A stretch of DNA of 64,000 nucleotides. Source: Bdellovibrionales bacterium. Lineage in GTDB: Bacteria; Bdellovibrionota; Bdellovibrionia; Bdellovibrionales; UBA1609. A model generated the notes under the pieces. The model saw nothing but the letters and a program-made list of their open reading frames with translations, did no database searches and was not told where the DNA came from. Positions 10,113-57,386 of this stretch are shown here, piece by piece (positions within the stretch are counted from its first letter, which is position 1; each line of letters opens with the position of its first letter). The position numbers and the translations under genes are program-made. Location of the stretch: assembly GCA_965116155.1 (NCBI GenBank), contig OZ220488.1, positions 1,496,318-1,560,317 on the forward strand. The letters run 5' to 3'.

Positions 10113-10790
10113 ATGTTTTTAAGATTTTTTTGTATTTTGTTTGTAAGTAGTGCTTTGGTGGCGGGTGGCCTTTTGGGTTGCTCGGATAAAGACAAATCTA
10201 AAAGACACACGCCCGATACTGTGCCGGCAGAAGAAACTCAACCTGACACTCAGGATCAAGATGATACTGCTTCGGATGAGGATGGTGCGGCTGACACTGC
10301 TGGTGTCGACATAGAGTTCGAAGCCAATTCTGCAGCCGTCGATCAAGGCTTTAAGGCTGCGGATTTTGACAGGCTTAAAAGATCTATTATTGGTGGTGAT
10401 GATGCTTTTGCGGTAGTGGCGGAGTTTTTAAAGCTTGGGGGAGACCCTAATTTGCATGAGCCCACAAGTGGCTATGGGCTTTTGCATATAGCGGCATATT
10501 CTTGCCGCACGGATGTGGCGCAGTTGCTGGTAGAGGCTGGGGCGAATTTAGAGGCTTACACGGCTTGTTGTGGAGGGCATACGCCCCTTATGGAGGCGGT
10601 GAGTAGTGGTTGTGCGCATACAAGTGAGGCGCTAATATCAGCGGGGGCTGATGTGCAGGCTGTAAGTACGGGCGAGGGTGTAGGGCCTGATGCTAAACAT
10701 TCGCGCAATTTGTACGACCTTGCCCGTGGTGCTCCCAGCAACCCTCAAATCTTAGACCTATTAAACATACACATAGGCCCAGCAAATTAA
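10113..10790 (+). CDS. ankyrin-repeat lipoprotein (225 aa)
   Basis: Lipobox GLLGC, an acidic linker, then ANK motifs (GYGLLHIAAYSCRTDVAQLLVEAGANL; HTPLMEAVSSGCAHTSEALISAGADV). Confidence 0.75.
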   Translation: MFLRFFCILFVSSALVAGGLLGCSDKDKSKRHTPDTVPAEETQPDTQDQDDTASDEDGAADTAGVDIEFEANSAAVDQGFKAADFDRLKRSIIGGDDAFAVVAEFLKLGGDPNLHEPTSGYGLLHIAAYSCRTDVAQLLVEAGANLEAYTACCGGHTPLMEAVSSGCAHTSEALISAGADVQAVSTGEGVGPDAKHSRNLYDLARGAPSNPQILDLLNIHIGPAN

Positions 10791-10797
10791 AGCGCTA

Positions 10798-10881
10798 GCC
10801 AAAACACCTCTTGTATGAAGCGCAGCCTGGTACAGCACCTTTGGTACACCAGGCAAGCGAAAAGGCAAGAGGTGTTTTGGC
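10798..10881. repeat. 84-nt three-tier hairpin (family H)
   Basis: Perfect 16-bp outer arms gccaaaacacctcttg / caagaggtgttttggc. Relatives at 37123-37205, 57047-57137 and inside each 239-bp unit at 47071-47787. Confidence 0.85.
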
Positions 10882-10900
10882 GGTCTATGCAGCCTCCGCA

Positions 10901-11039
10901 ACTGGCATATACTCTTGGGCCTCGGGTTAGCGCACAACCTTGGGTTCAATTAGCTGCCAATCCACCCAGTATCCTGCGTCACCAGATCTCATCCAATTAA
11001 GACTGGCGCGCTAAAATCGGCCCAAGAGTATATGCCAGT
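10901..11039. mobile_element. MITE-like 139-bp element with perfect 21-bp terminal inverted repeats
   Basis: actggcatatactcttgggcc (10901-10921) is the exact reverse complement of ggcccaagagtatatgccagt (11019-11039). No coding capacity. Confidence 0.5.
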
Positions 11040-11110
11040 CACAATGGCTGATTAGCAAGATAGTGCCAATTGCATGTTTGGTGCACCAAACAACCTCAAG
11101 GCCCTGCATG

Positions 11111-11440
11111 CGTAAGCATTAGAGTGCTAGTAAAATTCTCTGGGATTAAGCGACGCTATTATCGCAGCCTTCTGGAAGAAGGCGTCCGCGATAATAGCAA
11201 GCGTAGCTGAGAATTTTGCGGCCTATAAGGCTACTATAAGCCCGTACCCGCAAGTACGATTTCAGGTAAACTGAGGCAAACGCCGCCTGCGGCCGGGCTT
11301 TATTGGTCGCAAAAAAACCAGGCGTGACCTAAGCTGCCAGATTGGCTTAACGCCATGAACAACCTCTTGTATGAAGCTACTATGACCCTGTAGCGCAGGC
11401 CCGTAGCGACCACACCTACGTCAAAAAAGCCTTGTGTATA
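11111..11440. repeat. mosaic repeat block: module A + hairpin B + reverse-orientation copy of the 239-bp unit
   Basis: cgtaagcattagagtgctag, then hairpin B (11131-11219). After that, aagcccgtacccgcaagt..ccgggctttattg..caggcgtgacctaagctgccagatt..cttaacgccatg matches the reverse complement of the 47071-47787 unit. Confidence 0.8.
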
Positions 11441-15602: not shown

Positions 15603-15756
15603 TCGGCGTTAAAAAACTGCTTTTCGTTTAGCGTGGGAGGCACCGCCTTTGCGGTGTGTCCATAGACTGCCAAATGTGACGGCGCTCTAATAAAGCTTGT
15701 GCTGCTAACACTCTAATTGCGCCCTATTCATCTTAACCAAGCACATCCGGCTGCAG

Positions 15757-15820
15757 GCGCCTTTGACGGGAGTGTGGTCGCCTTGGGTCTATCGAACACC
15801 CAAGGCTACAGGCTCATAGA
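15757..15820. repeat. module C in reverse orientation
   Basis: gcgcctttgacgggagtgtggtcgccttgggtctatcgaacacccaaggctacaggctcatag is the reverse complement of the ctatgagcctgtagccttgg...cgtcaaagg consensus. A module-A-like ctaacactctaattgcg lies at ~15705. Confidence 0.8.
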
Positions 15821-15852
15821 TGCCGTATAGCCCAGAAAATTTTATTAGGCCT

Positions 15853-16746
15853 TTAATTTACTATATATTCTGAATGTTGGCCGTATTTAGGGTGGGGCTG
15901 GATGGCGCTTAAAAAATCTTGGCCTTTTTCTAAATCAAGCTGCAACAAGGTTTTAACCCTCTTAGCAGACAAGCTCTCTCTTAACATACGCACCACCGCT
16001 TGCCCATACCTCATATGAAACGAACCCACCACCAAAACCACCACATGCCGCGGGTGCGCCTTAGCAAAATTACCCACAAACCACGCCATAGTAGAGTCCT
16101 TTAAACTCTGCGCTAAAAAATACCTCCGCATCCACTTTTGTGCTTCAGCATCCGCAGTATCCGCATCAAAACCATGCCCAATATCGGACATCATTTTTTT
16201 AAACCGCTCCCAATACTCCTTAGAGCCTGGCTGAAAATTGGGCGGAATGAGCCGCCGCGCCTTAGCAGGCAAACCCTCCAACCCCAAGCGCGCCACCTGC
16301 GCCGCCAAAGGCCGCGGCGTGTTAGGAGCCAAGCTTGCACCCCCCACACTTAAAGGGTATCGCAACTGCACACCCCAACGCTCCAGCGAACGATCGCTCC
16401 AACCCACAGCCTCCTTAAAGGCCTCGTTATCTACCTCGCCACGCACCCACTGCGTTAAAATCTCCTGGTCTAAAAAATCCAAATGCTCTAGTGCAAAGCT
16501 CACCGTGCCCCCCAAGCGCCGTAAAAGTTCCCTTTGCTGCAATTGGTGCATCAAAACACCATGCGACTCACCCACCACCAAAACCGTACCCGGCACAACC
16601 GTGCTGATAAATTCTTCTAACTCTAAAAACCTACTTGCACCTGTATCGTACACACCATTAGCAAAAAACCCCGCCCCATAAGCAGTGCTTCCAAAACTCC
16701 AAAGTACAAACCAAAAAAACAAACGCATAAGGCAAAACCCCCGCAT
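15853..16746 (-). CDS. ChaN/Tiki-superfamily (DUF399) putative haem/iron-related periplasmic protein
   Basis: Signal peptide LFFWFVLWSFGSTAYGA. VLVVGESHG motif near the N-terminus and a late VVLVVGSFH, typical of the ChaN family. Confidence 0.55.
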   Translation of the reverse strand: MRGFCLMRLFFWFVLWSFGSTAYGAGFFANGVYDTGASRFLELEEFISTVVPGTVLVVGESHGVLMHQLQQRELLRRLGGTVSFALEHLDFLDQEILTQWVRGEVDNEAFKEAVGWSDRSLERWGVQLRYPLSVGGASLAPNTPRPLAAQVARLGLEGLPAKARRLIPPNFQPGSKEYWERFKKMMSDIGHGFDADTADAEAQKWMRRYFLAQSLKDSTMAWFVGNFAKAHPRHVVVLVVGSFHMRYGQAVVRMLRESLSAKRVKTLLQLDLEKGQDFLSAIQPHPKYGQHSEYIVN

Positions 16747-16864
16747 ATATTAGATTTATTAACACCACACCCTGCATACGCCCAATTAAATCACTGTTGC
16801 GACCTATACAGCTTACTCAATACGCTTGCACCCTCAACCCATACAAGGCACATTGCAATGCAAC

Positions 16865-18364: not shown

Positions 18365-19754
18365 CTTTGCAGAGCTCTTACGCGCCCTAGGCGACCACCC
18401 AGTTGTTGCGCGCTCCACACTCCACAATAAACCAACAGCCTTTTGTGGTGTTAGCACCGATACCCGTGCGGAGCTAAGTGGTAAAGTCTTTTTTGCACTT
18501 AAGGGGCCCAACTTTGATGGGCACGATTTTTTGGATACCGCAGTACAAAAAGGCGCACATTATCTCGTGGTAGAAAAAACCCCACGCGTCGCTATCGCGG
18601 CCGCTAAGCTTGCAGGTGCTGCGGTTATTAAAGTGCCCAGCACTTTGCGCGCGTTGCAAAATTTGGCCTCTTTTTGGCGCGAGCGGCTCACGCGTACAAC
18701 AGTGGTCGGCATAACAGGCACTAACGGCAAAACTTCTACCAAGTGCCTTGCCCACTCTATTTGTGCGCCCTTTTTAAAAAGCTACAAAAGCCGCGCCAGT
18801 TTTAACAACCACATTGGCGTGCCTTTGGCCTTGCTCGATACACCTCTTGAAACGCAGGTGGCTTTTTTAGAGCTCGGCATAAGCGCCCCCAACGAAATGC
18901 CCGCGCTTTGCCGCATAGCAAGCCCTCACATAGTGTGCGTTACTAACGTTGGACAGGGGCATTTAGAAAATTTTAAATCCATCGATGCCCTCGCAGAGGC
19001 CAAGGCTCAAATTTATACCCACTCTCCTTTAGCGCGGGTGCGGATTTTTAATCTCGACAACTCCTTTACTCAAACGATGTACCAGCAATACCAACCCCTA
19101 GGGTCAAGTGTGCTTTACTCTGCCCACAAGCCCGAGGCAGATGTATGCTTTAAAGGCACAGCACATGGATTGGGATCTATGCAAATAACAGGGCGCGTGC
19201 AAAATGCCTTGTCTCAATCCCGTGTGCCCTTTAGTGGCGAACACAATGTGCAAAACCTTATGGCGGCAAGCAGCATAGCTTTGGCTTTAAATTTAAAACC
19301 CCAACAGATTTGGCAAGCTTTGTCCGGGGCGAAGCTTCCTTTGCAAAGGGGGCAAATTATGCCCGGGGGGGCGGGATTTGATGTTTTTTTTGACGCTTAC
19401 AATGCCAATCCCAGTAGTATGCAGGCCTTTTTACATCAGCTAGCATACACGCCTCAGCTGGGCCTTATATTGGGCGAAATGCTCGAGCTAGGGCCGGGCC
19501 TCTCTGCCAAGGCTCATTTTGAGCTGGGGGTGGCAGTGGCAAAGCTTAAGCCTGTGGCGGTGGTGTTTGTGGGTGCAAGTTGTGAAAGCTTTTTAAAAGG
19601 CTTGGGAGACAGCACCACGCATTATGTGGCGCCAAATGTTACGGAGGATTTTTTGCGAACCAGCACCACGGCACTAAGGGGTTTGGGGCTTAAAACCCTG
19701 GCTCTTAAAGCCTCGCGCGGCATGCAGCTTGAAAGATTTCTACGGCATCTATGA
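18348..19754 (+). CDS. murF: UDP-N-acetylmuramoyl-tripeptide--D-alanyl-D-alanine ligase
   Basis: GITGTNGKTSTK, ELGISAPNEM, DAYNANPSSM. The ATG at 18348 (MACALNFAELL) overlaps the murE end by 17 nt. The last codons and stop lie inside a module-C repeat. Confidence 0.9.
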   Translation: MACALNFAELLRALGDHPVVARSTLHNKPTAFCGVSTDTRAELSGKVFFALKGPNFDGHDFLDTAVQKGAHYLVVEKTPRVAIAAAKLAGAAVIKVPSTLRALQNLASFWRERLTRTTVVGITGTNGKTSTKCLAHSICAPFLKSYKSRASFNNHIGVPLALLDTPLETQVAFLELGISAPNEMPALCRIASPHIVCVTNVGQGHLENFKSIDALAEAKAQIYTHSPLARVRIFNLDNSFTQTMYQQYQPLGSSVLYSAHKPEADVCFKGTAHGLGSMQITGRVQNALSQSRVPFSGEHNVQNLMAASSIALALNLKPQQIWQALSGAKLPLQRGQIMPGGAGFDVFFDAYNANPSSMQAFLHQLAYTPQLGLILGEMLELGPGLSAKAHFELGVAVAKLKPVAVVFVGASCESFLKGLGDSTTHYVAPNVTEDFLRTSTTALRGLGLKTLALKASRGMQLERFLRHL

Positions 19755-19872
19755 GCCTGTAGCCTTGGACGATTTTTAGGTCCAAGGTGACCACGCTTGC
19801 GTCAAGGCCTCGTGCCTTTAAAGTGATACTGGACGCTTTGGGGCTAGAGGGCCCCCAAAGCTGCTGGCGCTT
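19748..19872. repeat. module C plus family-D right flank
   Basis: ctatgagcctgtagccttggacgatttttaggtccaaggtgaccacg...cgtcaagg, then gctggcgcttttatccttgcg (compare gctggcgcttttatgcttacgc at 37087 and 48998). Confidence 0.8.
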
Positions 19873-21597: not shown

Positions 21598-21787
21598 CTT
21601 TGACTTGGCTCCTATCGCGGGCCTCTGGCTGGGTACTGGGCTCACTTGTACTTTGCGGAGACCTTTTGGGTCAATACGTGTTGCACTGTGCCTTGTCTCG
21701 ATGGCCACGGCCTCGTTATAAAATGGGGGGAGCTCGAAGGGGGCTAGTGCTGCGCGATAAACCGACTGACTTTTAGGGTAATGCCAA

Positions 21788-28147: not shown

Positions 28148-28192
28148 ATTTTTCTTAATTGCCAGAGGTTCATAGTGTGTTTGCCCGATGTA

Positions 28193-28346
28193 CGTGGCTT
28201 TGACGACGATCTGGTCGCCTTGGACTTAGAGATGCATTGGTGCCTCTAACGAAAGTGTGGCAAATAAGGTCACGTTTCATCCACTTGCCTCAAGCAAACC
28301 CTGACACAGGCGACACTATTTGCCTCAATTTAGGCTAGCACTCTAA
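28193..28346. repeat. repeat fragments: reverse module C and reverse module A
   Basis: cgtggctttgacgacgatctggtcgccttgg (28193-28223) and ctagcactctaa (28335-28346), ending 10 nt from the 5S 3' end. Confidence 0.7.
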
Positions 28347-28356
28347 ATTAATTTAC

Positions 28357-28476
28357 GTTGGTATCGTGCTACTCTCGACACAGGCGTGAGCCTGCACTAC
28401 CATCACCGCAGGTGAGCTTAACTGCTGAGTTCGGAATGGGTTCAGGTGTACCCTCACCGCTATAAACACCAACAGG
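28357..28476 (-). rRNA. rrf: 5S ribosomal RNA, not adjacent to a 23S gene
   Basis: - strand reads cctgttggtgtttatagcggtgagggtacacctgaacccattccgaactcagcagttaagctcacctgcggtgatggtagtgcaggctcacgcctgtgtcgagagtagcacgataccaacg. It has CCGAACTCAG, GATGGTAGT and GAGAGTAG blocks, and helix I ttggt/accaa. Ends are +/- 3 nt. Confidence 0.9.
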
Positions 28477-31689: not shown

Positions 31690-31987
31690 CTCTCTTTAAA
31701 AGCACGAGGCTTTGACGAGAGTGTCGCGGCCTTGGGCGTTGACGGGAGTGTGGTAAATCGAGTTTGCTCAGTTTGTCTTAGATTAAGCGCACTCGGACAC
31801 AGGCGTGGTTATTTGCCTAGGCCAACATTAGCCCCATTTCAGGTGCGCCGCTTTAACTCGATTTACAGGGCCATAAAAGCCTTATAGGTCGCAAAACAAA
31901 CTCGGGCCTTTCGTTTGTCCCAAGAATAGACGCGCCTGAGCTGCCCTTGGGACGGCACTTACTGGCCAAGTTTGTTTTACTAGCGCT
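31690..31987. repeat. mosaic repeat block (reverse module C, module F, module E, reverse module A)
   Basis: gcacgaggctttgacgagagtgtcgcggccttgg (31703-31737). gtgcgccgctttaactcgatttacagggccataaa (31843-31877) is also at 36947. ttataggtcgcaaaacaaactcgggcctttcgtttgtcccaag...cccttggga is also at 46985-47060. ctagcgctctaa lies at the right end. Confidence 0.8.
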
Positions 31988-32704
31988 CTAATCCTTTAAA
32001 AAAGCGTTCCATTCGGCGCTCCAAGGAGGCGGAAGGCTTTGGCACTGGTAGCTAAAATCTACCTCGTCTACGGGTTTCCAGTAGGATTGGGGACTGTAGA
32101 AGGTGTTAGGCTCATGGAATACGCGCTTTTGGTCCTCTGGGTCTAAGGGCTGCACAGAGACACGGCTTTTTTGGGTGTTTTTAGGGCCAAGCTCCACGCG
32201 GTTAGAGTGGGTTTTTTCTGCAGGGTGCAAATAGTACTCGTATACGCCGAGCCTTAGGGTTTGCTTGTCAAAAACAAAGGTCTTTAAGCCTCTAAAGAGC
32301 GCATAATGCCATACCATATAAGGGTGCTCGCCGACGCCTTTTTTTTCGTCTTCGCGGCTTAGTACGGTGCCATCAGGCAGTTCCCACTTGCCCATGGCGC
32401 TGCCTTGCACGATGGCGTACATGAGATACCGCTCGTCCTCTTGTGCTTGGTGCATATAATGACCGCCTTGCGTAAAGGGTGTAATAGGCTCTTTTTGAGC
32501 ATGCCGAAAATCAAACAAATGCATACCGCGCTTAATAGAGTTGTGCGAATGCAAAAGCAGCTCCCTATGGGGAGGGTTTTGTTGATTTTTGCACAAAAAA
32601 GCATCATCCGACCCCAGTACAGTAAAAAACCACATAAGGGTCGAGGCAATACTCTGCACGATGTTTTCTCCCCAGCCGGCCATATGCATGGCCGTATCGG
32701 TCAC
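31988..32704 (-). CDS. hypothetical protein (238 aa)
   Basis: ORF only, no recognisable motifs. Starts at GTG 32704, or at ATG 32689 or 32683. Divergent from family-2 paralog b. Confidence 0.45.
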   Translation of the reverse strand: MTDTAMHMAGWGENIVQSIASTLMWFFTVLGSDDAFLCKNQQNPPHRELLLHSHNSIKRGMHLFDFRHAQKEPITPFTQGGHYMHQAQEDERYLMYAIVQGSAMGKWELPDGTVLSREDEKKGVGEHPYMVWHYALFRGLKTFVFDKQTLRLGVYEYYLHPAEKTHSNRVELGPKNTQKSRVSVQPLDPEDQKRVFHEPNTFYSPQSYWKPVDEVDFSYQCQSLPPPWSAEWNAFLKD

Positions 32705-32950
32705 TTGAAGTTAGAGCGTTAGTCCAATATCCTGGGATTAAGCGTCGGCGTCCTGATAGCCTCTGGAAGAGGCGGCCATCAGGGCGCCAAGCGTCCCGCA
32801 GAATATTGGGCGGCCTATAAGGGATCTATGGCCCTGCGGCTTTGGGCGATTTTTAGGCCCAAGGCCGCGACGCTTACGTCAAAGCCCCGTGCATTGAGTA
32901 AGCCTAAGTTAGAGCGTTAGTCCAATACTCTGGGATTAAGTGCTGGATGA
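32705..32950. repeat. A-B-C repeat unit plus truncated second unit
   Basis: gttagagcgttag, hairpin B with core ctgatagcctctggaagaggcggccatcag (32753-32782), module C ctatggccctgcggctttggg..cccaaggccgcgac..cgtcaaagc..gtgcattgagtaag, then a second gttagagcgttagtccaatactctgggattaag truncated before the 32968 start. Confidence 0.85.
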
Positions 32951-32967: not shown

Positions 32968-35094
32968 GTGGCGCAATTACGCAACATAATACTTGGCAAG
33001 GCCTTTGTGGCAGTGGTGGCAATTGGGGTTGTGGGCTGCAGCAGCGTGCCCCAGCGCGAGCCCCAACGCGTGCCCTTGTCGCAAGCCCAAGAGCAGCAAA
33101 ATGCGCAAATCCTTTTAGAGCGCCAATTTTTGCGTGAGCTGGGTACTAAAGTGCACTCTGTAGTAGAGGCGAACACTTTTTTACTAAGGCGCCTTTATGT
33201 TTGCGTAACCTATGCTCGCTACCATGCGCGCCCGTTGCCGGAGTTTGTAATGAGGGCAAGAGCCTTAGAGGTAGAAGATAATATGCGCCTTAGCGCGAGT
33301 GTGAGGAGCACTAATAGCTGGGGCTCTTTTGATAAAGACGATTTAAAACAGACCTGCCCGCAGTATTTTTATCAAGTACAGCAGATGTCTCAGCAAACCT
33401 ACCCTGCCATTAAAAAACTACTTGCTATGCATGGGGTTTTAAAAAAGCAAACCATGCAGCAGCTGTGGGGGCTGATGTTAAAAGAGCTACAGTACGCGCA
33501 TTTTAAAAAAACGGGCACTAAATTGAGTTATAGTTTAAAGCTTACAGCAGTAGAAACTCCAGCTGGCCCTACTGTTGGGCCTAGGCGCTGGGTGTATAAA
33601 AAAGCCAGCGCCCCAGCCAAGCTCCCTAAAAAGTGGGGCGTAGAGGGTGTGGATTTTTCGCCTCCCGTTAAGAGTAGCCATATAAACAATGTGTTTCATA
33701 ATATCGAAGGCTTAGAGTTTAGCGGGCTTGATATAGAGCGGTATGTGTTTGATAGTAACGCTAAAGAGCATGGCGCCATGCCGGGCAAGGTTGTGCCGGT
33801 GGGTTTTGGGCAAAACACACGCATGCTGCAGCCGCATCAAGCTGTTTATGCGCCTAAGGCTTTTAAAAATTATTGTGATGTATTTAATTTTAGCTTGCAC
33901 TGGGGTGAGGGCTCTAGGGCCCAGTGCCATGCGTACCATAAAACACTTTTAAAAGTAAGCCAGCATTTGGGCATTGCAGAGCACCAAGATCCAGATTACG
34001 CGCAAGCCGAAAGCGCATCTAAAGCGCGCTGCACGCAGGGTGAGGCGGTAGATAGTGTGCTGTTACAAAAAATCCAAAAGGCCGTGGATAAAAGCTGTGC
34101 CTTGTGGTCTGGGTTAAATTTTAACTACGATGTTAAAGCAAAAAAAAGAGTATTTAGTTTTGACTCAAAAAAATCGGCACAAAAATTATCAAAGCTCACT
34201 ACAAAAGAGTTAGAGCAGCTCTATTTGGTGGGGAGTGTGCTAAAGCAATTTTCTAACGAGTGGAGCTTTGATGAAATAAAAAAACACCAAAACCTTACTG
34301 GCCTCTGGGTTAAAGACACGCTAATTAACATGGTGGGGGCGGTGCCTTTTTTGGTTATGCTAAAAACCTTTGCCTTGCAGGATCTAGCGGATTGGCAAGA
34401 TGTATCGGATTTAAGAGGGCTGAGTGATAAAACCTGGCAAGATATGGAGCGTGTGTTTGCTTACAAGCTAAAGCGTGGGCATGCGTTGAGTGCACACACT
34501 CAGCAGCATATAAACGAGGCTCATTTGGATCTTATGCAGTTTGTACCCTTGGTTACAGACATGGTCCAAAATCCTCCACAAAGCTTTCTGGCGCAGGGCT
34601 TGAGTGCGGAGGGTGTTGAGCGTCTGGCTGCAGGTTTAACCAAGCGTTATGAGAGCCTGTGGCACCAGGGCAAAACTGTAGCGGTGCTTTTTATTGCGAC
34701 AATAGGTTTTTGTGCGGCTCCTTTTTCAAAAGCATTAAAGGCTTTCAAATTTGTTAAGGCCGCTGCCAAGGTGGAGAGTTTAAGGGCGTTGCCTGGCATA
34801 GGAGGGGCATTTTTTTCTTGTGGTTGGTCGTTTGATGTTGTGGCTAATGCGGGCTATTTTGTTTGGGCGGCTTATGATGGAGCCAAGGTAGTGGATGGGT
34901 TTTTATCTATGGGTAACAAGCTTGTGCGGTACGAAGATTTAGACCAAGTGCAAAAAGACGTCCTTTTTGAGATGGCATTTATGCCAGTGGGCATAGCTGG
35001 CACAACAAAGGCTGCGCGTGCGCTTCGTCAAAAGCTCCAAAAACAAAAACAAAAAGCCCACAAGGCCTTGCAAAAACTACGTGCGCCCAATTAG
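32968..35094 (+). CDS. family-2 paralog b: large lipoprotein with C-terminal transmembrane segments (708 aa)
   Basis: GTG start. AFVAVVAIGVVGCSS lipobox. Shares SQAQEQQNAQILLERQFLR, YPAIKK..VLKKQTMQQLW, HFKKTG.KL.Y, PFL.MLK...LQ.LA.WQD and WQDMERVF blocks with 12074..14311. Its stop codon lies inside module A. Confidence 0.7.
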   Translation: MAQLRNIILGKAFVAVVAIGVVGCSSVPQREPQRVPLSQAQEQQNAQILLERQFLRELGTKVHSVVEANTFLLRRLYVCVTYARYHARPLPEFVMRARALEVEDNMRLSASVRSTNSWGSFDKDDLKQTCPQYFYQVQQMSQQTYPAIKKLLAMHGVLKKQTMQQLWGLMLKELQYAHFKKTGTKLSYSLKLTAVETPAGPTVGPRRWVYKKASAPAKLPKKWGVEGVDFSPPVKSSHINNVFHNIEGLEFSGLDIERYVFDSNAKEHGAMPGKVVPVGFGQNTRMLQPHQAVYAPKAFKNYCDVFNFSLHWGEGSRAQCHAYHKTLLKVSQHLGIAEHQDPDYAQAESASKARCTQGEAVDSVLLQKIQKAVDKSCALWSGLNFNYDVKAKKRVFSFDSKKSAQKLSKLTTKELEQLYLVGSVLKQFSNEWSFDEIKKHQNLTGLWVKDTLINMVGAVPFLVMLKTFALQDLADWQDVSDLRGLSDKTWQDMERVFAYKLKRGHALSAHTQQHINEAHLDLMQFVPLVTDMVQNPPQSFLAQGLSAEGVERLAAGLTKRYESLWHQGKTVAVLFIATIGFCAAPFSKALKAFKFVKAAAKVESLRALPGIGGAFFSCGWSFDVVANAGYFVWAAYDGAKVVDGFLSMGNKLVRYEDLDQVQKDVLFEMAFMPVGIAGTTKAARALRQKLQKQKQKAHKALQKLRAPN

Positions 35095-35645
35095 AGTGTT
35101 AGCCCAATATTCTGGGATTAAGCGCTCGAGGCAAGAGCAGCACCCTGTAAGGGTGCGACCTATGAAGCTACTATGAGCCTGTAGCCTTGTGCGGTCTTTA
35201 GGCACAAGGTGACCAGATTGTCGCCAAAGCCTCGTGCGTTGAGTAAACACAAAGTTAAAGGACTAATAAAATTCTCTGGGATAAAGCGGCGGCACACTGA
35301 TAGCCCCAACGGGGCGGCCATCAGGGTGCCAAGCGTCCCGCAGAGAATTTTATGGGCTATACGGTATCTATGAGCCTGTAGCCTTGTGCGGTCTTTAGGC
35401 ACAAGGTGACCAGATTGTCGCCAAAGCCTCGTGCGTTGAGTAAACACAAAGTTAAAGGACTAATAAAATTCTCTGGGATAAAGCGGCGGCACACTGATAG
35501 CCCCAACGGGGCGGCCATCAGGGTGCCAAGCGTCCCGCAGAGAATTTTATGGGCTATACGGTATCTATGAGCCTGTAGCCTTGTGCGGTCTTTAGGCACA
35601 AGGTGACCAGATTGTCGCCAAAGCCTCGTGCGTTGAGTAAACCCT
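35092..35645. repeat. tandem array of the 197-bp A-B-C structured repeat (2.4 units)
   Basis: ctatgagcct recurs at 35171, 35368 and 35565, an exact 197-bp period. The units look identical by eye. Confidence 0.95.
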
Positions 35646-36946: not shown

Positions 36947-37204
36947 GTGCGCCGCTTTAACTCGATTTACAGGGCCATAAATAGCTGTCTAGCGCGCAAT
37001 ATTACCTTGAAGCCTACGTTTGCCATCTTGGCTAATGCCCTATGGGCAGCCAAGATGGCTGCACTCTCAGGTTCAAGGGTAACATTGCTGGCGCTTTTAT
37101 GCTTACGCCAGCTGCATAGACCGCCAAAACACCTTGTTATTCCGCTTGCCTGCAGCACATAAAGGTGCTTAAGCAGGCGGCACTTCATACAAGAGGTGTT
37201 TTGG
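36947..37204. repeat. mosaic repeat block (module F, family-D hairpin element, family-H hairpin)
   Basis: gtgcgccgctttaactcgatttacagggccataaa, then the D element 36983-37108 (agctgtctagcgcgcaa ... gctggcgcttttatgcttacgc), then the H hairpin 37123-37205. Confidence 0.85.
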
Positions 37205-38554
37205 CTAGTCTGTAATTTTCTTCCATGGGGCAACGACACTAAGTAAAAGCATGCCAGGCAAGGCCATAAAAAAGCACAAAATAAAAAACCTCGTCCACCC
37301 GAGCCCACCGAAGTTGCCGATCCAGCTAAAAGCTTGCCAAAAGCTCTCAGGAGCCAGCTTAGACCAGTCCCACCCATCTACCAAAAAGCCCGTAGACATA
37401 CTGGCGGCATTGCGCGGCAAGGCCATAATGCTGGTAAGCAGCGCCATTTGCGTGGCAGTGAAGTTTTTGTTTGTACTGCGCGCCATAAAGGCCAACAGAG
37501 CCGCAGAGCCCAAGCCCGCAGCAAAATACTCCCCCATAACCACAACACCCAAAACCCACAACTGCGGCACGGTGCTCAGCCATGCAAAACCCAAAATGGT
37601 CAGCATTTGCACAAAGCCAAACACCCACAAGGATTTATTAATCCCCAGGCGCAGCATCATAAGCCCCCCCACAAAACCGCCCGAAAGCACACTAGCCACG
37701 CTGACCAGTTTTACAATGCTGCCGATATGGGTCTTAGTAAAACCCATATCCAGAAAAAAAGGCGTCTGCAGGGCCGTTGCCATGTTGTCACCCAGTTTAT
37801 AAAGCATAATAAAAAACAAAACCCCCAATGCCCCCCCAAAAGCTCCGCGGGCCTGGCCGTGCTTGTGCCCAAAAAAATCCCTAAAAGGCTCCACAATAGC
37901 CGCCAAAAGGCTGCCTGGCACCTTTACCCCTTGGGTGATTTCTTTAATCAACAAACTATGCAGCACACCTATGCCCATAAAAAGAGCCATCACCATATGC
38001 GTTTGAGACCAGCTGATGTGGTCTGCTAGCACTAGCCCCAGCCCGCCGGGCACAAAGCCTGCTACTCTATAGGCATTGGCATAAAAGCTGTTCCCCAAGC
38101 CGAGCTCGTTGTCTGGTAGCAGCTCGCGCCTGTAAGCATCGAGGGCAATGTCCTGTATGGCCGACCAGAGGGTCACTAAGGTCACAGCTGCGGCGATAAA
38201 ACGTATATCTCCTGTGGGGTCAAGGCTTGCGCAGCCCAGCATGCCGGCAATGCAGCCCATTTGCGCTATAAGCATCCAGCTGCGTCTGCGCCCTAGAGGC
38301 GAAAGCCTATACCGATCGCATAGGGGCGCAATTAAAAACTTAAAACTCCAAAAAATTCCTAAGCCCGTTACGAGCGAAATCGCCTGCAAACTTGCGCCCT
38401 CATCCCGCATCCAGGCAGGTACAAACTGATAAAAATAATAAAGCGGCAAGCCAGCCGAAAAGCCATTAACAGCACACACCAGCATGCGGCGTAGCGATTG
38501 GGGCTCGAGGTGGAGTTTTTTTAAAAGATTTTGGCCCATTTTTTCCCAATACAA
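37205..38554 (-). CDS. ampG: AmpG-family MFS muropeptide permease
   Basis: 449 aa with about 12-14 hydrophobic segments. N-terminal GFSAGLPLYY..... and LGRRRSWML motifs resemble AmpG/SLC33-type MFS proteins. Confidence 0.65.
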   Translation of the reverse strand: MYWEKMGQNLLKKLHLEPQSLRRMLVCAVNGFSAGLPLYYFYQFVPAWMRDEGASLQAISLVTGLGIFWSFKFLIAPLCDRYRLSPLGRRRSWMLIAQMGCIAGMLGCASLDPTGDIRFIAAAVTLVTLWSAIQDIALDAYRRELLPDNELGLGNSFYANAYRVAGFVPGGLGLVLADHISWSQTHMVMALFMGIGVLHSLLIKEITQGVKVPGSLLAAIVEPFRDFFGHKHGQARGAFGGALGVLFFIMLYKLGDNMATALQTPFFLDMGFTKTHIGSIVKLVSVASVLSGGFVGGLMMLRLGINKSLWVFGFVQMLTILGFAWLSTVPQLWVLGVVVMGEYFAAGLGSAALLAFMARSTNKNFTATQMALLTSIMALPRNAASMSTGFLVDGWDWSKLAPESFWQAFSWIGNFGGLGWTRFFILCFFMALPGMLLLSVVAPWKKITD

Positions 38555-39030: not shown

Positions 39031-39061
39031 CAGTGTACTCGTTAAGATACAGTATTAAAAC

Positions 39062-39120
39062 CCTAATGTGGCATGAGTACGCGCCAGCCGGAAGCCGGAG
39101 GACATACTTCAGTCACGACT
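39062..39120. repeat. solo right half of the 51654-51797 MITE-like element
   Basis: taatgtggcatgagtacgcgccagccggaagccggaggacatacttcagtcacga compares with taatatggtatgagagctcgccagccggaagccggagaacatacttcagtcacga at 51748-51802. Confidence 0.75.
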
Positions 39121-45714: not shown

Positions 45715-46134
45715 GTGGAGCCTATAAAGCTAAACCTGTCGGCATTAGAGAAAACCATTAAATCACTGGAGCGCTCTTTAGAGCTTTGTGATGAGTTTAA
45801 GGGTACAAAGAAGCTGCAAGAGGCTTTGCGAGAGAGTGTTATTCAGTCGTTTGAGGTGTGTTATGAGGTTGCGCGCAGATTAATGTTTCGGTACCTAAAA
45901 CAGGCCACAGATGAGCGCGTGGATGAGATGGCGGTGCATGATGTGTTTAGGCTGGGGCATAGGAGTGGAATTTTGTCTCATGTATCTAGCTGGTTTGAGT
46001 ATAGAAAAAAAAGAAACCTAACCAGCCATATTTATAATGCCGATATAGCGGAAGAGGTTTTTTGTGCAGCGGCGCCTTTTTTAAAGGATGCTAAGTTTTT
46101 GTTAAAAAAATTAGAGGAAAAGATTGAAGCTTGA
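45715..46134 (+). CDS. hepT: HI0074-family nucleotidyltransferase substrate-binding (HEPN) protein, putative type VII toxin
   Basis: 139 aa. LS.LEK.IKSLE..LE start and the helical pattern typical of HI0074-like proteins; R....H-like RNLTSH near the C-terminus. Paired with an MNT gene. Confidence 0.7.
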   Translation: MEPIKLNLSALEKTIKSLERSLELCDEFKGTKKLQEALRESVIQSFEVCYEVARRLMFRYLKQATDERVDEMAVHDVFRLGHRSGILSHVSSWFEYRKKRNLTSHIYNADIAEEVFCAAAPFLKDAKFLLKKLEEKIEA

Positions 46135-46423
46135 TCTAGCGCCGCGCTATGAGGAGGCGGTTAAAAAAATTTTTCTTCGGCACTTGCCCCATGCTAAGGT
46201 GTGGGCTTTTGGCTCTCGGGTGAGTGGGTCTGCTGTAGAGACTTCCGATTTGGACCTTGTAATTGTTGCGGACGAAAAAACAAACTTTAAAGCGCTTAGC
46301 TTGTTGCAGGTGGATTTTGAGGAGTCCGACATCCCCTTTAAGGTGGATGTTTTGGACTGGCAGCGGCTTTCTGCAGACTTTCAAAAAGTCATCAAAAACC
46401 AATACATTGTTTTTATAAGTTAG
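46124..46423 (+). CDS. mntA: minimal nucleotidyltransferase (MNT), putative antitoxin
   Basis: 99 aa. GSRVSGSAVETSDLDLVIV (G-S ... D-x-D polymerase-beta-type motif). TTG start overlaps the HEPN gene by 11 nt. Confidence 0.75.
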   Translation: MKLDLAPRYEEAVKKIFLRHLPHAKVWAFGSRVSGSAVETSDLDLVIVADEKTNFKALSLLQVDFEESDIPFKVDVLDWQRLSADFQKVIKNQYIVFIS

Positions 46424-46835
46424 TGCGTAAGCATTAGAGCGCTAGGAAAATGCCCTGGGATAAAGCGCAGTCTCTAGCGCAACCCCCTTTAGGGGGTGTC
46501 CGCGATAGAGACAAGTGTCCCGCAGGGCATTTTCCGACCTATGAAGCTACTATGGCCCTGCGGCTTTGGATGTCCTAGGTCCAAAGCCGCGACACTTCCG
46601 TCAAAGTTCCGTGCGTTGAGTAAACACAAATTAGAGCGCTAGCCTAATATTCTGGGCAAAGCGCAGTCTCCCTGATAGCGCCTGAAAGGCGCGGCCATCA
46701 GGGAGATAAGCGCCCCACAGAATATTAGGCGGCCTATAAGGGATCTATGGCCCTGCGGCTTTGGATGTCCTAGGTCCAAAGCCGCGACACTTCCGTCAAA
46801 GTTCCGTGCGTTGAGTAAACACAAATTAGAGCGCT
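46424..46835. repeat. two tandem A-B-C repeat units
   Basis: Module C plus A (ctatggccctgcggctttggatgtcctaggtccaaagccgcgacacttccgtcaaagttccgtgcgttgagtaaacacaaattagagcgctag) is identical in both units. Hairpin B differs almost completely (ggaaaatgccctggga... versus cctaatattctgggc...). Confidence 0.9.
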
Positions 46836-46959
46836 AGTAAAATAAAATGGGGCAATAAGAGCCAACCTCAGAACAGCCTCTTTAAGACTGGCATATGTCC
46901 TGTGGACGATTCTGGGGCGCCTTGCTTGAGCTGCAGGGGTGTGGTGATAGCAGGAGCTC

Positions 46960-47810
46960 AGGTAGACGGATGGCTTGTAGTAGCTTTATAGGCCGCAAAA
47001 CAAACTCGGGCCTTTCGTTTGTCCCAAGGATAGACGCGCCTGAGCTGCCCTTGGGACTGCACTTTCTGGCAAGAGGTGTCCATGGCGTTAAGTTAATCTG
47101 GCAGCTTAGGTCACGCCTTGGTTTATCGCGATCAATAAAGCCCGGACGCAGGCGACATTGTTTTTCTCGGCTTATATAAATCGCACTTGCGGGTACGGGC
47201 TTAGACCTAACCTGCAGGGCCATAGACAGCTTCATAGACCGCCAAAACACCTCTTGGCTTTCCGCTTGCCTGGAGCACCCAAGGGTGCTCATCAGGCTGC
47301 GCTTCCAGCAAGAGGTGTCCATGGCGTTAAGTTAATCTGGCAGCTTAGGTCATGCCTTGGTTTATCGCGATCAATAAAGCCCGGACGCAGGCGACATTGT
47401 TTTTCTCGGCTTATATAAATCGCACTTGCGGGTACGGGCTTAGACCTAACCTGCAGGGCCATAGACAGCTTCATAGACCGCCAAAACACCTCTTGGCTTT
47501 CCGCTTGCCTGGAGCACCCAAGGGTGCTCATCAGGCTGCGCTTCCAGCAAGAGGTGTCCATGGCGTTAAGTTAATCTGGCAGCTTAGGTCACGCCTTGGT
47601 TTATCGCGATCAATAAAGCCCGGACGCAGGCGACATTGTTTTTCTCGGCTTATATAAATCGCACTTGCGGGTACGGGCTTAGACCTAACCTGCAGGGCCA
47701 TAGACAGCTTCATAGACCGCCAAAACACCTCTTGGCTTTCCGCTTGCCTGGAGCACCCAAGGGTGCTCATCAGGCTGCGCTTCCAGCAAGAGGTGTTTTG
47801 GCTAGTCTGT
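46960..47810. repeat. module E followed by a 239-bp tandem repeat x3 (47071-47787)
   Basis: aagaggtgtc recurs at 47071, 47310 and 47549, with aagaggtgtt at 47788, giving a 239-bp period. Units are near-identical (for example tcacgcc / tcatgcc / tcacgcc). Each ends in a family-H hairpin. Confidence 0.95.
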
Positions 47811-47821
47811 AACTTTAACTT

Positions 47822-47898
<77 letters not shown>

Positions 47899-48783: not shown

Positions 48784-49025
48784 ATGGTTTACTCAATGCA
48801 CGGAGCTTTGACGAGAGTATCGCCGCTTTGTCCCATACTATTGGGCTAGCACTCTAATTGCGTTTCAACTTGGCCCGGGTTTTGCATGGGTCAGCTGTCT
48901 AGCGCGCAAAAATGCTTCAGGCAGGACCACTTGTCCATCTGATGGCCCGCGCCTGGCAGCGCTATCAGCTGGACTGCGTAGGGCTGAAGACATTTTTGCT
49001 GGCGCTTTTATGCTTACGCAAGCAA
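48784..49025. repeat. mosaic repeat block (reverse C, reverse A, family-D hairpin element)
   Basis: gtttactcaatgcacggagctttgacgagagtatcgc, then ctagcactctaattgcg, then the D element 48893-49019 with the same flanks as 36983-37108 but a different interior. Confidence 0.85.
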
Positions 49026-56398: not shown

Positions 56399-57047
56399 CT
56401 GTTCAAATACCGCTCTAGCTTTCTTAATGAGACGTATAGCAGGTTTTTAAAAAACGGCGCGGGTCTTAGTGCAAAAAATCAAGAGCGTTTTCGTGCCATT
56501 TCGGAAAAATTAGGTGCTTTAAGTATTCAGTTTAACGACAACCTTAGGCGAAGTACTGCGGACTTTAAGTTATATTTGAGCGAGGATGAGATATCAGGGT
56601 TGCCTGAGGATTTAAAAGCCGTCGCCTGCAAAAAGGCTCAAGCTGCAGGCGGTAAAAATCAATACGTGATTGGCATAGACTATTCGGATTATCTACAAGC
56701 CATGAAGTACTTAGATAGTTCTGAAGCTCGGCGTAAGCTATGGGACGCCAAGGGCAAGGTGGTGACCTCCCCTTAAAAATCATAGTGTGTCTTTAAGTAT
56801 GGGGCATATATTTTACAGTGGATACGATGCGGTTTTATACAGTTACCTTTGGTCTGAGATGTTGGTGGCGGGTGCTTGGCCGGTGTTTGAGCGGGGTGGT
56901 TTTTTGTCACACAAAATGGGGCGCCGGTTTGAGGAGTGTATTTTATCTAAAGGCAACACTCAGGATGCGGAGGTTTTGTTTGCGGATTTTTGCCCACACC
57001 AACCTACTGCCCAAGACCTAATCCAATTTTGGGGATTTAAAGACTAG
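56399..57047 (+). pseudogene. remnant of an M3-family peptidase (Dcp / oligopeptidase A) lacking start, catalytic core and HExxH
   Basis: Frame 2, 56399-56776, has no start codon until 56576 and reads FLKNGAGLSAKNQERFRAISEKLGALSIQFNDNL...EISGLPEDL...YLDSSEARRKLW (N-terminal third of Dcp/PrlC). Frame 3, 56787-57047, reads GHIFYSGYDAVLYSYLWSEML...RRFEECILSKGNTQDAEVLF (extreme C-terminus). About 400 aa in between are missing. Confidence 0.8.
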
Positions 57048-57137
57048 CCACAACACCTTGAGGCTTTCGCTCGCCTCCTCGATATGCCCTTCGGGCACCA
57101 TCGCAGAGCCAGCGCTCGGAGCTCAAGGTATTTTGGC
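57047..57137. repeat. family-H-like long hairpin
   Basis: Arms gccacaacaccttgag / ctcaaggtattttggc (2 mismatches). Sits between the convergent pseudogene and rpoZ, so it could act as a bidirectional terminator. Confidence 0.65.
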
Positions 57138-57143
57138 CTGCCT

Positions 57144-57386
57144 TTAACGATTTAAATATTTTTCTAGCTGCTGCTGGGGGGTGGGGCCTTGGGGGTCGTG
57201 CTCAAAGCCCACCGTGCCCCCTGCGACCTCTCGCAGGGCGTTTACGACGCTCATGTTGCCGCTTTCTTGCACAGAGGTGAGCGCTGCACCCTTGATCAGC
57301 TGCTTGGCTCGCTTAGAAACCAACACCACCAGCGAGAACCTGTTGGGGACTTTTTCTAGACAATCTTCTACCGTTACCCGTGCCAT
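57144..57386 (-). CDS. rpoZ: DNA-directed RNA polymerase subunit omega
   Basis: [30 protein letters not shown] is the canonical RpoZ N-terminus. Confidence 0.92.

What the first reader, a model, noticed from the sequence alone, without database searches (positions are those of the whole stretch)
35092..35645. 197-bp three-module structured repeat in tandem; its hairpin core covaries between dispersed copies
The period is exactly 197 bp (ctatgagcct at 35171, 35368, 35565). Each unit has three modules. Module A is ttagagYgYtag. Module B is a ~90-nt hairpin with outer arms such as aaaattctctggga / tcccgcagagaatttt. Module C is ctatgagcctGTAGccttgtgc-loop-gcacaagg..cgtcaaag..cgtgcgttgagtaaac, a GTAG-plus-palindrome layout reminiscent of REP elements. 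The same architecture recurs at 11111-11230, 32705-32950 and 46424-46835. Single modules occur in either orientation at 15757-15820, 19748-19830, 28193-28346, 31703-31737 and 48784-48870. The core of module B keeps its shape while its sequence changes. The copies read ctgat-A-gcccc-aac-ggggc-GGCC-atcag (35297-35324 and 35494-35521), ctgat-A-gcctc-tggaa-gaggc-GGCC-atcag (32753-32782), ctgat-A-gcgcc-tgaaa-ggcgc-GGCC-atcag (46672-46701) and tatcgc-A-gccttc-tggaa-gaaggc-GTCC-gcgata (11160-11193). A reverse-strand copy at 48939-48968 reads ctgat-A-gcgc..gcgc-GGGCC-atcag. A conserved asymmetric internal loop (A opposite GKCC) sits between helices that are fully compensated. That is the signature of a selected RNA or ssDNA structure, not of decaying duplicates. 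No transposase, RAYT, integrase, RT or Cas gene lies in the window, so whatever reads this structure is unidentified.
Basis: seen in the sequence. Interest (0 to 1): 0.8.

Follow-up and report, generated by a model that had tools for sequence, protein, structure and literature searches.

The report
Modular hairpin repeats at gene ends
This is a new, lineage-specific family of non-coding, hairpin-forming DNA repeats (like REP/BIME and BOX elements) that fills about half of the space between genes in an uncultured small-genome bacterium, so it is real and well structured but belongs to a kind already known.

Summary
A 197-bp unit is repeated 2.4 times at 100% identity at 35171-35642. It belongs to a dispersed family with about 24 full or partial copies in the window. 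These copies make up about 47% of the intergenic DNA. The ~90-nt hairpin B occurs in 16 sense copies. Its helices are 91% paired, against about 40% in shifted controls. Compensated changes occur in 22 of 26 pairs. An AAGCG/CAAGCG internal loop is conserved in every subfamily.

The "GTAG" of module C is not invariant. Truncated and chimeric copies exist alongside intact ones. Nearly every notable property is already documented for REP/BIME-type repeats. These include compensated stem subfamilies, G-T pairs, location at gene 3' ends, donation of TAG stop codons and tandem clusters.

New details found here:
- Every copy lies sense to the adjacent gene.
- Module A supplies the stop codon of 5-6 upstream genes.
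- Other modules (D, E) recombine with A, B and C into mosaics.

No Rfam, plasmid, phage, metagenome or relative's locus matched. No transposase lies in the window.

Verdict: a new member of a known kind, most likely a selfish, co-transcribed modular repeat. Its mobilising or binding factor is unidentified.

The parts
35091..35102 (+). Module A (TTAGAGTGTTAG), head of the array. Its TAG at 35092-35094 is the stop codon of ORF 32968-35094.
35103..35170 (+). Truncated hairpin B. The 5' arm and a small substitute hairpin are present, but the 3' arm is missing. The junction to module C follows.
   Evidence: 26 bits only
35171..35248 (+). Module C copy 1. It holds a GYRG-headed ~30-nt hairpin, then CGYCAAAG..CGTGCGTTGAGTAAAC. 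A linker, ACAAAG, follows at 35249-35254.
35255..35266 (+). Module A variant (TTAAAGGACTAA).
35267..35367 (+). Hairpin B copy 1 (35267-35353) plus its 3' flank GGGCTATACGGTAT. It has an outer helix, an AAGCG/CAAGCG internal loop, the CTGAT-A...GGCC-ATCAG core and an apical helix GCCCC/GGGGC.
35368..35445 (+). Module C copy 2, identical to copy 1.
35452..35564 (+). Module A variant plus hairpin B copy 2 and its flank, identical to 35255-35367.
35565..35642 (+). Module C copy 3, the end of the array. It lies 53 nt before the ankyrin gene start at 35696.
32711..32945 (+). One full A-B-C unit (32711-32907) plus A and 25 nt of the next B. It sits in the divergent spacer, sense to gene 32968-35094.
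46421..46840 (+). A degenerate A carrying the stop codon of the nucleotidyltransferase (MNT-type) gene, then two A-B-C units (46434-46629 and 46631-46824) with different B cores but near-identical C modules, then a terminal A.
10787..11440 (+). A (TAA stop of ankyrin gene 10113-10790) with a B2-type hairpin (10787-10894). Then A+B1 (11119-11232), module D (about 11240-11370) and a C-like module (11370-11440).
31698..31991 (-). A (TAG stop of ORF 31988-32704), a B3-type hairpin, an inserted module E, and the 3' half of C.
36983..37215 (-). Two consecutive A+B units. The second TAG of A (37207-37205) is the stop codon of the MFS transporter gene.
46976..47812 (-). A+B2 starting 10 nt after tRNA-Ile, then a 239-bp B2+D unit repeated 3 times (47069-47796), then a chimeric B copy (46982-47091).
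48787..49010 (-). A-variant plus a B1 hairpin (48893-49010), then an internally deleted A-B-C unit (48787-48857) that ends 3 nt before the gene start at 48783.
57033..57147 (-). A divergent A+B copy. The TAA of A (57146-57144) is the stop codon of rpoZ.
15705..15856 (-). A (TAA stop of the ChaN-like gene), a B whose interior is deleted, C, and a terminal A.
19732..19818 (+). Module C overlapping the 3' end of murF. The stop TGA at 19752-19754 lies inside CTATGAGCC.
28176..28346 (-). A starting 10 nt after the 5S rRNA, then other sequence, then the 3' half of C.

Best explanation
This is a lineage-specific family of non-coding, modular dispersed repeats of the REP/BIME/BOX kind.

**Unit.** One unit has three parts:
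- a 12-nt head (A) rich in stop codons;
- a ~90-nt hairpin (B);
- a ~80-nt module (C) holding a REP-sized, GYRG-headed hairpin.

Further modules (D, E) can replace or interrupt these.

**Shown.**
- Copies sit in intergenic DNA, mostly directly at the 3' end of a gene, and always in the sense orientation of the adjacent gene.
- The head often supplies that gene's stop codon.
- The helices are kept by compensated changes, while an AAGCG/CAAGCG internal loop and the flanks stay constant.
- Modules are shuffled, truncated and locally duplicated.

**Inferred.**
- The elements are selfish, non-autonomous repeats. They are tolerated where they end up in 3' untranslated transcript.
- They are co-transcribed with the upstream gene.
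- The folded sense strand, with its conserved loops and the xTAG tag next to each stem, is recognised by a factor encoded elsewhere in the 1.6-Mb genome. The most economical candidate is a hairpin-specific single-strand enzyme of the RAYT / IS200-IS605 type.
- The 197-bp array is a very recent local amplification by unequal recombination or slippage between identical C modules. It is not a separate kind of element.
- As transcribed hairpins they probably also act as 3'-end barriers or terminators.
For: - **Repeat family and abundance.** The elements cover 3628 of 7708 intergenic bp.
- **Structure under selection.** The motif is asymmetric: sense copies score 60-111 bits and antisense 24 bits or less.
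- **Strand of the fold.** G-U pairs exceed A-C pairs by 22 to 9 in B. Module C shows G-U pairs and no A-C pairs.
- **Position.** Elements occur in 6 of 9 convergent, 3 of 31 co-directional and 2 of 10 divergent spacers.
- **Anchoring.** The 5' end sits at the stop codon of a co-directional gene for rpoZ, the ChaN-like gene, an ankyrin gene, two orphan ORFs, the MFS transporter and the MNT-type nucleotidyltransferase. It sits 10 nt after the 5S rRNA and tRNA-Ile genes.
- **Mobility or conversion.** Copies at 31878-31966 and 46982-47070 are 94% identical although 15 kb apart (D18). Chimeric and deleted copies exist.
- **Recent local duplication.** The 197-bp array is 100% identical and the 239-bp array 99% identical.
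- **Non-coding.** Periods of 197 and 239 are not multiples of 3. No Pfam hits fall in these arrays.
- **Literature match.** REP families show stem subfamilies with complementary changes, G-T pairs, a preference for convergent and unidirectional spacers, TAG donation to flanking ORFs, and clusters reiterated in tandem with flanking DNA (PMC3733652). BOX is a composite A-B-C repeat, and BOX, RUP and SPRITE elements cluster and insert into one another (PMC3049150; PMC10969869).
Against: - No transposase, RAYT or recombinase lies in the window, and the rest of the genome could not be retrieved.
- No empty site or target duplication could be defined, so mobility is inferred and not shown.
- Copies lie on both strands although GC skew is uniform. 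This does not fit the lagging-strand bias of IS200/IS605-type insertion.
- Hairpin B (90 nt) is far longer than a REP. Copies are head-to-tail, whereas head-to-head and tail-to-tail dimers predominate among REPs.
- The AAGCG loops conserved on both arms suggest a host or RNA-level function that a purely selfish model does not need.
- Sense and antisense folding energies are equal. The strand assignment therefore rests on the G-U excess and on orientation.
Confidence: 0.55

Rival explanations
1. Host-selected cis-acting RNA elements. Hairpins B, C and D would be the organism's 3'-end signals, acting as transcription terminators, barriers to 3' exonucleases, or RNase III/E processing sites. Repeat-like spread would be secondary.
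For: - All loci are sense to the adjacent gene, and the 5' end sits at or within 10 nt of the end of protein, 5S rRNA and tRNA genes.
- All six convergent spacers of at least 100 bp carry them.
- The base of B is an A-tract/U-tract helix (AAAAY...RTTTT), and module D holds a small GC hairpin followed by TTTATTG.
- Canonical intrinsic terminators are not enriched over shuffles anywhere in the window.
- Loops are conserved while helices change.
Against: - Most genes in the window lack them.
- Two loci lie upstream of genes in divergent spacers.
- Tandem arrays of 2-4 units, truncated copies and chimeras are not what a tuned signal looks like.
- A 200-nt three-module unit is far more than termination needs.
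- A 64%-identity relative lacks the family.
Confidence: 0.25
2. A classical cut-and-paste MITE. The arms of hairpin B would be terminal inverted repeats bound as double-stranded DNA by a DDE transposase. Arm-to-arm covariation would then reflect the need for both ends to match the same transposase, not folding.
For: - B is a near-perfect long palindrome with 13-15 bp outer arms that differ between subfamilies.
- A begins and ends with YTAR (TTAG...CTAG), the target type of IS5-group elements. That target type is from my own knowledge and was not checked here.
Against: - Complementarity runs through the whole 90 nt, not only the ends.
- Non-complementary loops are conserved in direct orientation on both arms.
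- The G-U excess over A-C and the strong strand asymmetry of the model score do not fit double-stranded recognition.
- No target-site duplication flanks B, and the conserved flanks (A on the left, GCGGYCTAT on the right) are not inverted copies of each other.
Confidence: 0.08
3. Independent small-RNA genes. Each unit, or each hairpin B, would be transcribed from its own promoter as a multicopy regulatory RNA.
For: - A weak promoter-like match (TAAACA-17-TAAAAT, 9 of 12 positions) lies at the junction of C, A and B in three units.
- The fold is strong and conserved.
Against: - Promoter-like sites are not enriched over shuffles, and the match is absent from the B2 and B3 subfamilies.
- No terminator follows the units.
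- No Rfam family matches.
- Overlap with stop codons and ORF ends argues for co-transcription.
Confidence: 0.05
4. Site-specific recombination sites of an integron-like or Xer-like system. A would be the core site, and B-C units would be inserted as circles, giving A-[B-C]-A arrays.
For: - Arrays begin and end with A (32711/32909; 46434/46631/46826; 15856/15716).
- Folded sites with conserved extrahelical bases and variable helices recall attC sites. This resemblance is from my own knowledge.
Against: - There are no cassette ORFs and no integrase or recombinase in the window.
- No GTTRRRY/RYYYAAC boxes are present; the base of the stem reads AAAAY/RTTTT.
- A terminal A is always followed by the first 6-25 nt of B, which is what a truncated next unit would give.
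Confidence: 0.03

Closest known systems
REP elements and BIME mosaics (GTAG/GYRG-tagged REP superfamily; Di Nocera et al. 2013, PMC3733652)
   Same: - They are high-copy, extragenic, hairpin-forming repeats.
- Subfamilies differ by complementary stem changes, and G-T pairs suggest the fold forms in RNA.
- Copies concentrate in convergent and unidirectional spacers next to ORF 3' ends.
- Element termini donate TAG stop codons.
- Clusters are reiterated in tandem together with flanking DNA.
- The module C hairpin is REP-sized and carries a GYRG head, and mosaic composition with other motifs parallels BIMEs.
   Different: - Hairpin B is about 90 nt with several helices and conserved internal loops, where a REP is 20-40 bp.
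- Copies are head-to-tail and all sense to genes, whereas head-to-head and tail-to-tail dimers predominate among REPs.
- The GYRG head covaries with a 3' partner and so is not a fixed unpaired tag.
- No RAYT is known for this genome.
- The sequence is unrelated to any described family.
BOX elements of streptococci (boxA-boxB(n)-boxC, plus boxD-F in S. suis; Croucher et al. 2011, PMC3049150)
   Same: - It is a composite repeat built from separable modules, with alternative modules and a variable number of tandem copies.
- It is highly base-paired when transcribed.
- It clusters with other repeat families, inserts into them, and modifies ORF ends.
   Different: - In BOX only the inner boxB is reiterated, and boxA pairs with boxC.
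- Here the whole A-B-C unit is reiterated, and each module folds on its own.
- The phylum and the sequence are different.
SPRITE (pneumococcal Rho-independent-terminator-like element) and ERIC/Correia-type transcribed MITEs
   Same: They are dispersed repeats whose hairpins act on the transcripts they are part of, through termination or RNase cleavage. Their effects can depend on orientation (PMC3049150, PMC10969869).
   Different: - Those are single-hairpin or TIR elements, in part with target duplications.
- None is reported with a conserved symmetric internal loop.
- None is reported with the strict sense orientation seen here.
IS200/IS605-derived palindrome-associated elements and REPINs
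   Same: Subterminal hairpins take the place of terminal inverted repeats, a conserved tetranucleotide sits next to the hairpin foot, and recognition is strand-specific (from my own knowledge).
   Different: - There is no replication-strand bias here: both strands are used under uniform GC skew.
- B is not an inverted doublet of REPs, because its conserved loop motifs are direct and not complementary.
- No Y1 transposase was found.

Membership tests
REP (GTAG/CGTC-tagged palindromic repeats) | Small (20-40 bp) imperfect palindrome | tested here: inconclusive
   The module C hairpin is about 30 nt and fits. Hairpin B, the dominant module, is about 90 nt and does not.
REP (GTAG/CGTC-tagged palindromic repeats) | Unpaired terminal GTAG tag (GYRG in degenerate families) at one end of the stem | tested here: inconclusive
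   GYRG precedes the C hairpin in all 8 exact matches. However, GTAG/GCGG alternates together with TGAC/CCGC on the other side, so it behaves as a helix. B is preceded by YTAG.
REP (GTAG/CGTC-tagged palindromic repeats) | Extragenic, mainly in convergent or unidirectional spacers, close to ORF 3' ends, able to donate TAG | tested here: met
REP (GTAG/CGTC-tagged palindromic repeats) | Predominantly inverted dimers (head-to-head or tail-to-tail; REPIN) | tested here: not met
   All adjacent copies are head-to-tail on one strand.
REP (GTAG/CGTC-tagged palindromic repeats) | Cognate RAYT (Y1 HUH transposase) gene in the genome | not testable with these tools
   None was found in the 64-kb window. 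The source contig (1.6 Mb) could not be fetched.
BIME | Mosaic of REPs in alternating orientation, separated by a small set of conserved linker motifs | tested here: not met
   Mosaic composition with conserved linkers is present, but the orientation never alternates.
BOX | boxA and boxC ends that pair with each other, flanking 0-n tandem boxB modules | tested here: not met
   There is no pairing between A and C. Each module folds on its own, and the whole unit is what repeats.
MITE (DDE-mobilised) | Terminal inverted repeats plus a target-site duplication | tested here: inconclusive
   The arms of B could be read as inverted repeats. No duplication flanks any copy, and the conserved flanks are asymmetric. 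No empty site is available.
IS200/IS605-type non-autonomous element | Insertion orientation tied to the replication strand (lagging-strand template) | tested here: not met
   6 loci are on the plus strand and 7 on the minus strand, while cumulative GC skew rises almost monotonically (from about 6 kb onward) across the window.
Integron attC | R''/R' boxes (RYYYAAC/GTTRRRY), cassette ORFs between sites, and an IntI integrase | tested here: not met
   The stem base reads AAAAY/RTTTT. Units abut with no ORF between them. No integrase was found.
Any Rfam 15 RNA family | Score at or near the family gathering threshold | tested here: not met
   Only 5S rRNA and tRNA passed threshold. The best hit on the repeat scored 16 bits against a threshold of 44.

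The most novel reading that the evidence does not exclude
Hairpin B would be the ligand of an undescribed, lineage-specific partner. That partner could be a hairpin-specific single-strand transposase distinct from RAYT, or a dimeric RNA-binding factor. It would read the pseudo-symmetric AAGCG/CAAGCG internal loop. The A-B-C unit would be a stop-codon-anchored 3'-end module that this deep-branching, small-genome bacterium uses in place of canonical terminators. That would make it a new element/partner system and not merely another REP family.
Probability: 0.15. Interest if true: 0.6.

Novelty: new member of a known kind. Interest (0 to 1): 0.35.

Why it matters
- **Annotation.** About half of the intergenic DNA in this window is one repeat system. 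That system sets where several genes end, including rpoZ, murF and an MFS transporter. Annotation pipelines will otherwise call spurious ORFs inside it, for example 35160-35447 and 46882-47322.
- **Biology.** It shows that REP/BIME-like structured repeats can expand in a deep-branching uncultured lineage with a 1.6-Mb genome. The nearest aconitase homologue is only 64% identical.
- **A clean test case.** The loops are conserved, the helices vary and the orientation is strictly sense. This makes it a good system for asking whether such repeats are kept for their own propagation or for RNA 3'-end function.
- **Limit.** It does not open a new category.

Tried and rejected
- **Rfam.** Searches at gathering thresholds and at permissive E-values found nothing.
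- **Public genome scan.** A scan of 185,579 species genomes with the module C head gave only single chance matches. The source genome is not in that collection.
- **Other sequence scans.** Two metagenome scans and one viral scan with long patterns gave 0 hits. blastn against plasmids and phages gave no match.
- **Source contig.** Exact-protein look-ups failed three times, so no genome-wide census or transposase search was possible.
- **Nearest relative.** The closest retrievable locus (L047, aconitase 64% identical) has its own palindromes but no copy of this family.
- **Candidate reader gene.** The orphan ORF 31988-32704 is flanked by inverted repeat units. It has no Pfam, PHROG or PDB hit and no homologue other than itself among 5.8 billion proteins, so it is not a multicopy transposase.
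- **Strand from energies.** Sense and antisense folding energies are equal.
- **Target duplication.** An apparent TTTAAATC duplication around the rpoZ copy turned out to be the element's own 3' flank.
- **Rejected ideas.** A coding repeat is excluded because the periods 197 and 239 are not multiples of 3. CRISPR, attC, dif/Xer sites, retron and type III antitoxin arrays are excluded on anatomy.
Full report
**1. The observation**

The tandem array is real. Tandem Repeats Finder gives 35171-35642, period 197, 2.4 copies, 100% identity and no indels.

The short motifs are far above chance:
- TTAGAGYGYTAG has 14 matches, against 1.3 expected.
- The head of module C has 11 matches, against 0.04 expected.

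A profile built from four units finds about 24 full or partial copies.

A covariance model of module A plus hairpin B finds 16 sense copies at E<1e-5. Sense copies score 60-111 bits. The same loci read on the opposite strand score 24 bits or less. The motif is therefore strand-asymmetric even though it is a hairpin.

**2. Structure and covariation**

Whole units fold far better than shuffles, with z = -4.6 to -4.9. Hairpin B adopts the same fold with RNA or DNA parameters.

On the model-based alignment of 14 distinct copies:
- 91.4% of cells form standard pairs. The figure is 37-42% when the 3' partners are slid by 1-3 columns.
- 22 of 26 pairs carry changes on both sides.
- No shuffle out of 500 reaches the observed values.

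A MAFFT alignment made without any structural model gives 21 of 26 compensated pairs. The module C hairpin also shows compensated pairs.

What stays constant while the helices change is as follows:
- module A;
- the 3' flank GCGGYCTATRARGCT;
- an internal loop carrying AAGCG on the 5' arm and CAAGCG on the 3' arm, which are direct and not complementary.

In four of those, the flanks CTGAT-A...GGCC-ATCAG are identical and only the apical helix differs, with every change compensated.

G-U pairs outnumber A-C mismatches 22 to 9 in B. Module C shows G-U pairs and no A-C mismatches. This points to folding of the sense strand. The folding energies of the two strands are equal, however, so this evidence is moderate.

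**3. Context**

The window comes from a 1.6-Mb contig. Its aconitase has no relative closer than 64% identity, and those relatives are Bdellovibrionales/Oligoflexia MAGs.

The window encodes three ankyrin proteins, several orphan paralogue families, a lone 5S rRNA gene and a lone tRNA-Ile gene. Pfam and NCBIfam scans of about 50 ORFs show no transposase, RAYT, integrase, reverse transcriptase or Cas protein.

The repeats occupy 3628 of 7708 intergenic bases. Their distribution by spacer type is:

| Spacer type | Spacers with repeats |
|---|---|
| Convergent | 6 of 9 (all six that are at least 100 bp) |
| Co-directional | 3 of 31 |
| Divergent | 2 of 10 |

Every locus is in the sense orientation of the gene it abuts.

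The 5' end is anchored to gene ends:
- Positions 2-4 of module A (TAG or TAA) are the stop codon of rpoZ, a ChaN-like gene, an ankyrin gene and two orphan ORFs.
- A degenerate A provides the stop of the MNT-type nucleotidyltransferase gene.
- The second TAG of A ends the MFS transporter gene.
- murF ends inside module C.
- A starts 10 nt after the 5S rRNA gene and 10 nt after the tRNA-Ile gene.

The tail of C together with A carries stop codons in all three frames.

Copies lie on both strands although the cumulative GC skew rises almost monotonically (from about 6 kb onward). Orientation therefore follows transcription and not replication.

**4. Mosaic nature and turnover**

Other modules join A, B and C.
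- Module D holds a small terminator-like hairpin. It follows B at 11240-11370. Together with a B2-type hairpin it forms a 239-bp unit repeated three times at 99% identity at 47069-47796.
- Module E interrupts C at 31740-31860 and near 36950-36980.

In the two adjacent units at 46434 and 46631, the C modules are nearly identical but the B cores differ.

Several copies are damaged or rearranged:
- A copy at 46982-47091 is a chimera of two B types joined at CTTG.
- Copies at 35091-35169, 15821-15856 and 48787-48857 have internal deletions.

Copies 15 kb apart can be 94% identical (D18).

The three C modules of the 197-bp array are identical, whereas its first unit has a different A and a truncated B. 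This fits a recent duplication of one A-B-C unit by unequal recombination between C modules.

**5. What it is**

The features match what is documented for REP-type repeats in PMC3733652:
- palindromic units with a terminal GTAG tag that can degenerate to GYRG;
- subfamilies with complementary stem residues;
- frequent G-T pairing, taken there as a sign of RNA function;
- preference for convergent and unidirectional spacers next to ORF 3' ends;
- termini that provide the TAG stop codon;
- clusters reiterated in tandem together with flanking DNA.

Composite A-B-C repeats with alternative modules, which cluster and insert into one another and modify ORF ends, are documented for BOX, RUP and SPRITE (PMC3049150; PMC10969869).

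I therefore read this as a new, lineage-specific family of that known kind. It differs in four ways:
- a much longer main hairpin;
- a conserved pseudo-symmetric internal loop;
- an exclusively head-to-tail arrangement;
- strictly sense orientation.

**6. Mechanism**

*Shown:* non-coding modular repeats; selection on pairing; conserved unpaired motifs; sense orientation; anchoring at stop codons; local tandem duplication; module shuffling.

*Inferred:* the repeats are co-transcribed with the upstream gene. The folded sense strand is recognised by a factor encoded outside the window. Dispersal is by that factor, or by recombination between copies. As transcribed hairpins they probably also act as 3'-end barriers.

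The main rival is that they are host-selected 3'-end signals. The position data and the lack of enrichment of canonical terminators support this. The arrays, the truncated copies, the two divergent-spacer loci and the absence from most genes weaken it.

Other readings are less likely, for the reasons given under the rival explanations. They are a DDE-type MITE, independent small-RNA genes and attC-like recombination sites.

**7. Limits**

The rest of the source genome could not be obtained.

No other sequence carries the family:
- public species genomes;
- metagenome scans;
- a viral scan;
- plasmids and phages;
- the nearest retrievable relative.

All covariation therefore comes from paralogous copies within 64 kb. 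Element ends, target duplication, transcription and the partner protein remain untested.

The one orphan ORF flanked by inverted repeat units (31988-32704) has no homologue anywhere and is not a multicopy gene.

**8. Verdict**

This is a new member of a known kind and of moderate interest.

The most novel reading still open is a new hairpin/partner system that marks gene 3' ends. I put its probability at about 0.15.

Noticed in passing
47069-47796 (minus sense): A second perfect tandem array: a 239-bp unit repeated 3 times at 99% identity. Each unit is a B2-type hairpin plus module D, which holds the terminator-like hairpin GCCTGCGTCCGGGC followed by TTTATTG. The array lies directly downstream of tRNA-Ile.
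   Followed up: partly
28356-28473 (-) and 47822-47898 (-): The 5S rRNA gene stands alone with no 23S or 16S gene nearby. tRNA-Ile(GAT), normally found in the rRNA spacer, is also isolated. The rRNA operon appears to be fragmented.
   Followed up: no
8832-10097, 10113-10790, 35696-36946: Three ankyrin-repeat proteins. The last contains a 102-bp coding tandem repeat (6.4 copies, 36161-36814). Together with the small genome and the many orphan ORFs, this suggests a host-associated lifestyle.
   Followed up: partly
11999-14311 vs 32968-35094; 19873-21708 vs 26423-28147: Two families of large paralogous orphan proteins (35% and 43% identity) with lipoprotein-like or signal-like N-termini and no Pfam domain. 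They may be effectors or surface proteins.
   Followed up: partly
39043-39118 and 51727-51802; 51654-51674 / 51777-51797: A 76-nt element, 83% identical between its two copies, lies just upstream of two unrelated genes. It has a GC hairpin core, CGCCAGCCGGAAGCCGGAG. The second copy forms the 3' arm of a perfect 21-bp inverted repeat. This may be a separate regulatory or repeat family.
   Followed up: no
287-311: A homopolymer run of 25 C, followed by a 12-bp repeat in 2.9 copies.
   Followed up: no
10902-10921 / 11019-11038: A perfect 20-bp inverted repeat with 97 bp between the arms, inside the repeat-rich spacer. It occurs only once in the window and looks like a different, TIR-type element.
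   Followed up: partly
31988-32704 (-): An orphan ORF (238 aa) flanked by repeat units in inverted orientation. It has no homologue other than itself among 5.8 billion proteins, and no Pfam, PHROG or PDB hit.
   Followed up: yes
45715-46423: A toxin-antitoxin-like gene pair: a nucleotidyltransferase substrate-binding (HEPN-type) protein and a minimal nucleotidyltransferase (MNT-type). It lies immediately upstream of a repeat array. A similar pair occurs in the distant relative's locus L047 (144-783).
   Followed up: no
whole window: Sigma-70-type promoter matches and canonical hairpin-plus-U-tract terminators are no more frequent than in shuffled sequence. The only excess comes from the module D repeats.
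   Followed up: partly
19855-19873; stops at 26440-26442, 31667-31669, 40202-40204; 51689-51735: Further degenerate remnants of the repeat heads sit at gene ends. An A-variant, TAAAAGCGCCAGCA, lies at the stop of 19873-21708. A TAAGCA motif lies at three other stops. A B-flank/C remnant follows gene 50342-51520. The family is therefore more pervasive than the clear copies suggest.
   Followed up: partly
L047:16138-16518 and 16627-16751: The distant relative's locus has its own nested long palindromes (arms of 32-47 nt) and an 8-bp microsatellite (ACGTCGCT, 11 copies). Neither is related in sequence to the family studied here.
   Followed up: no
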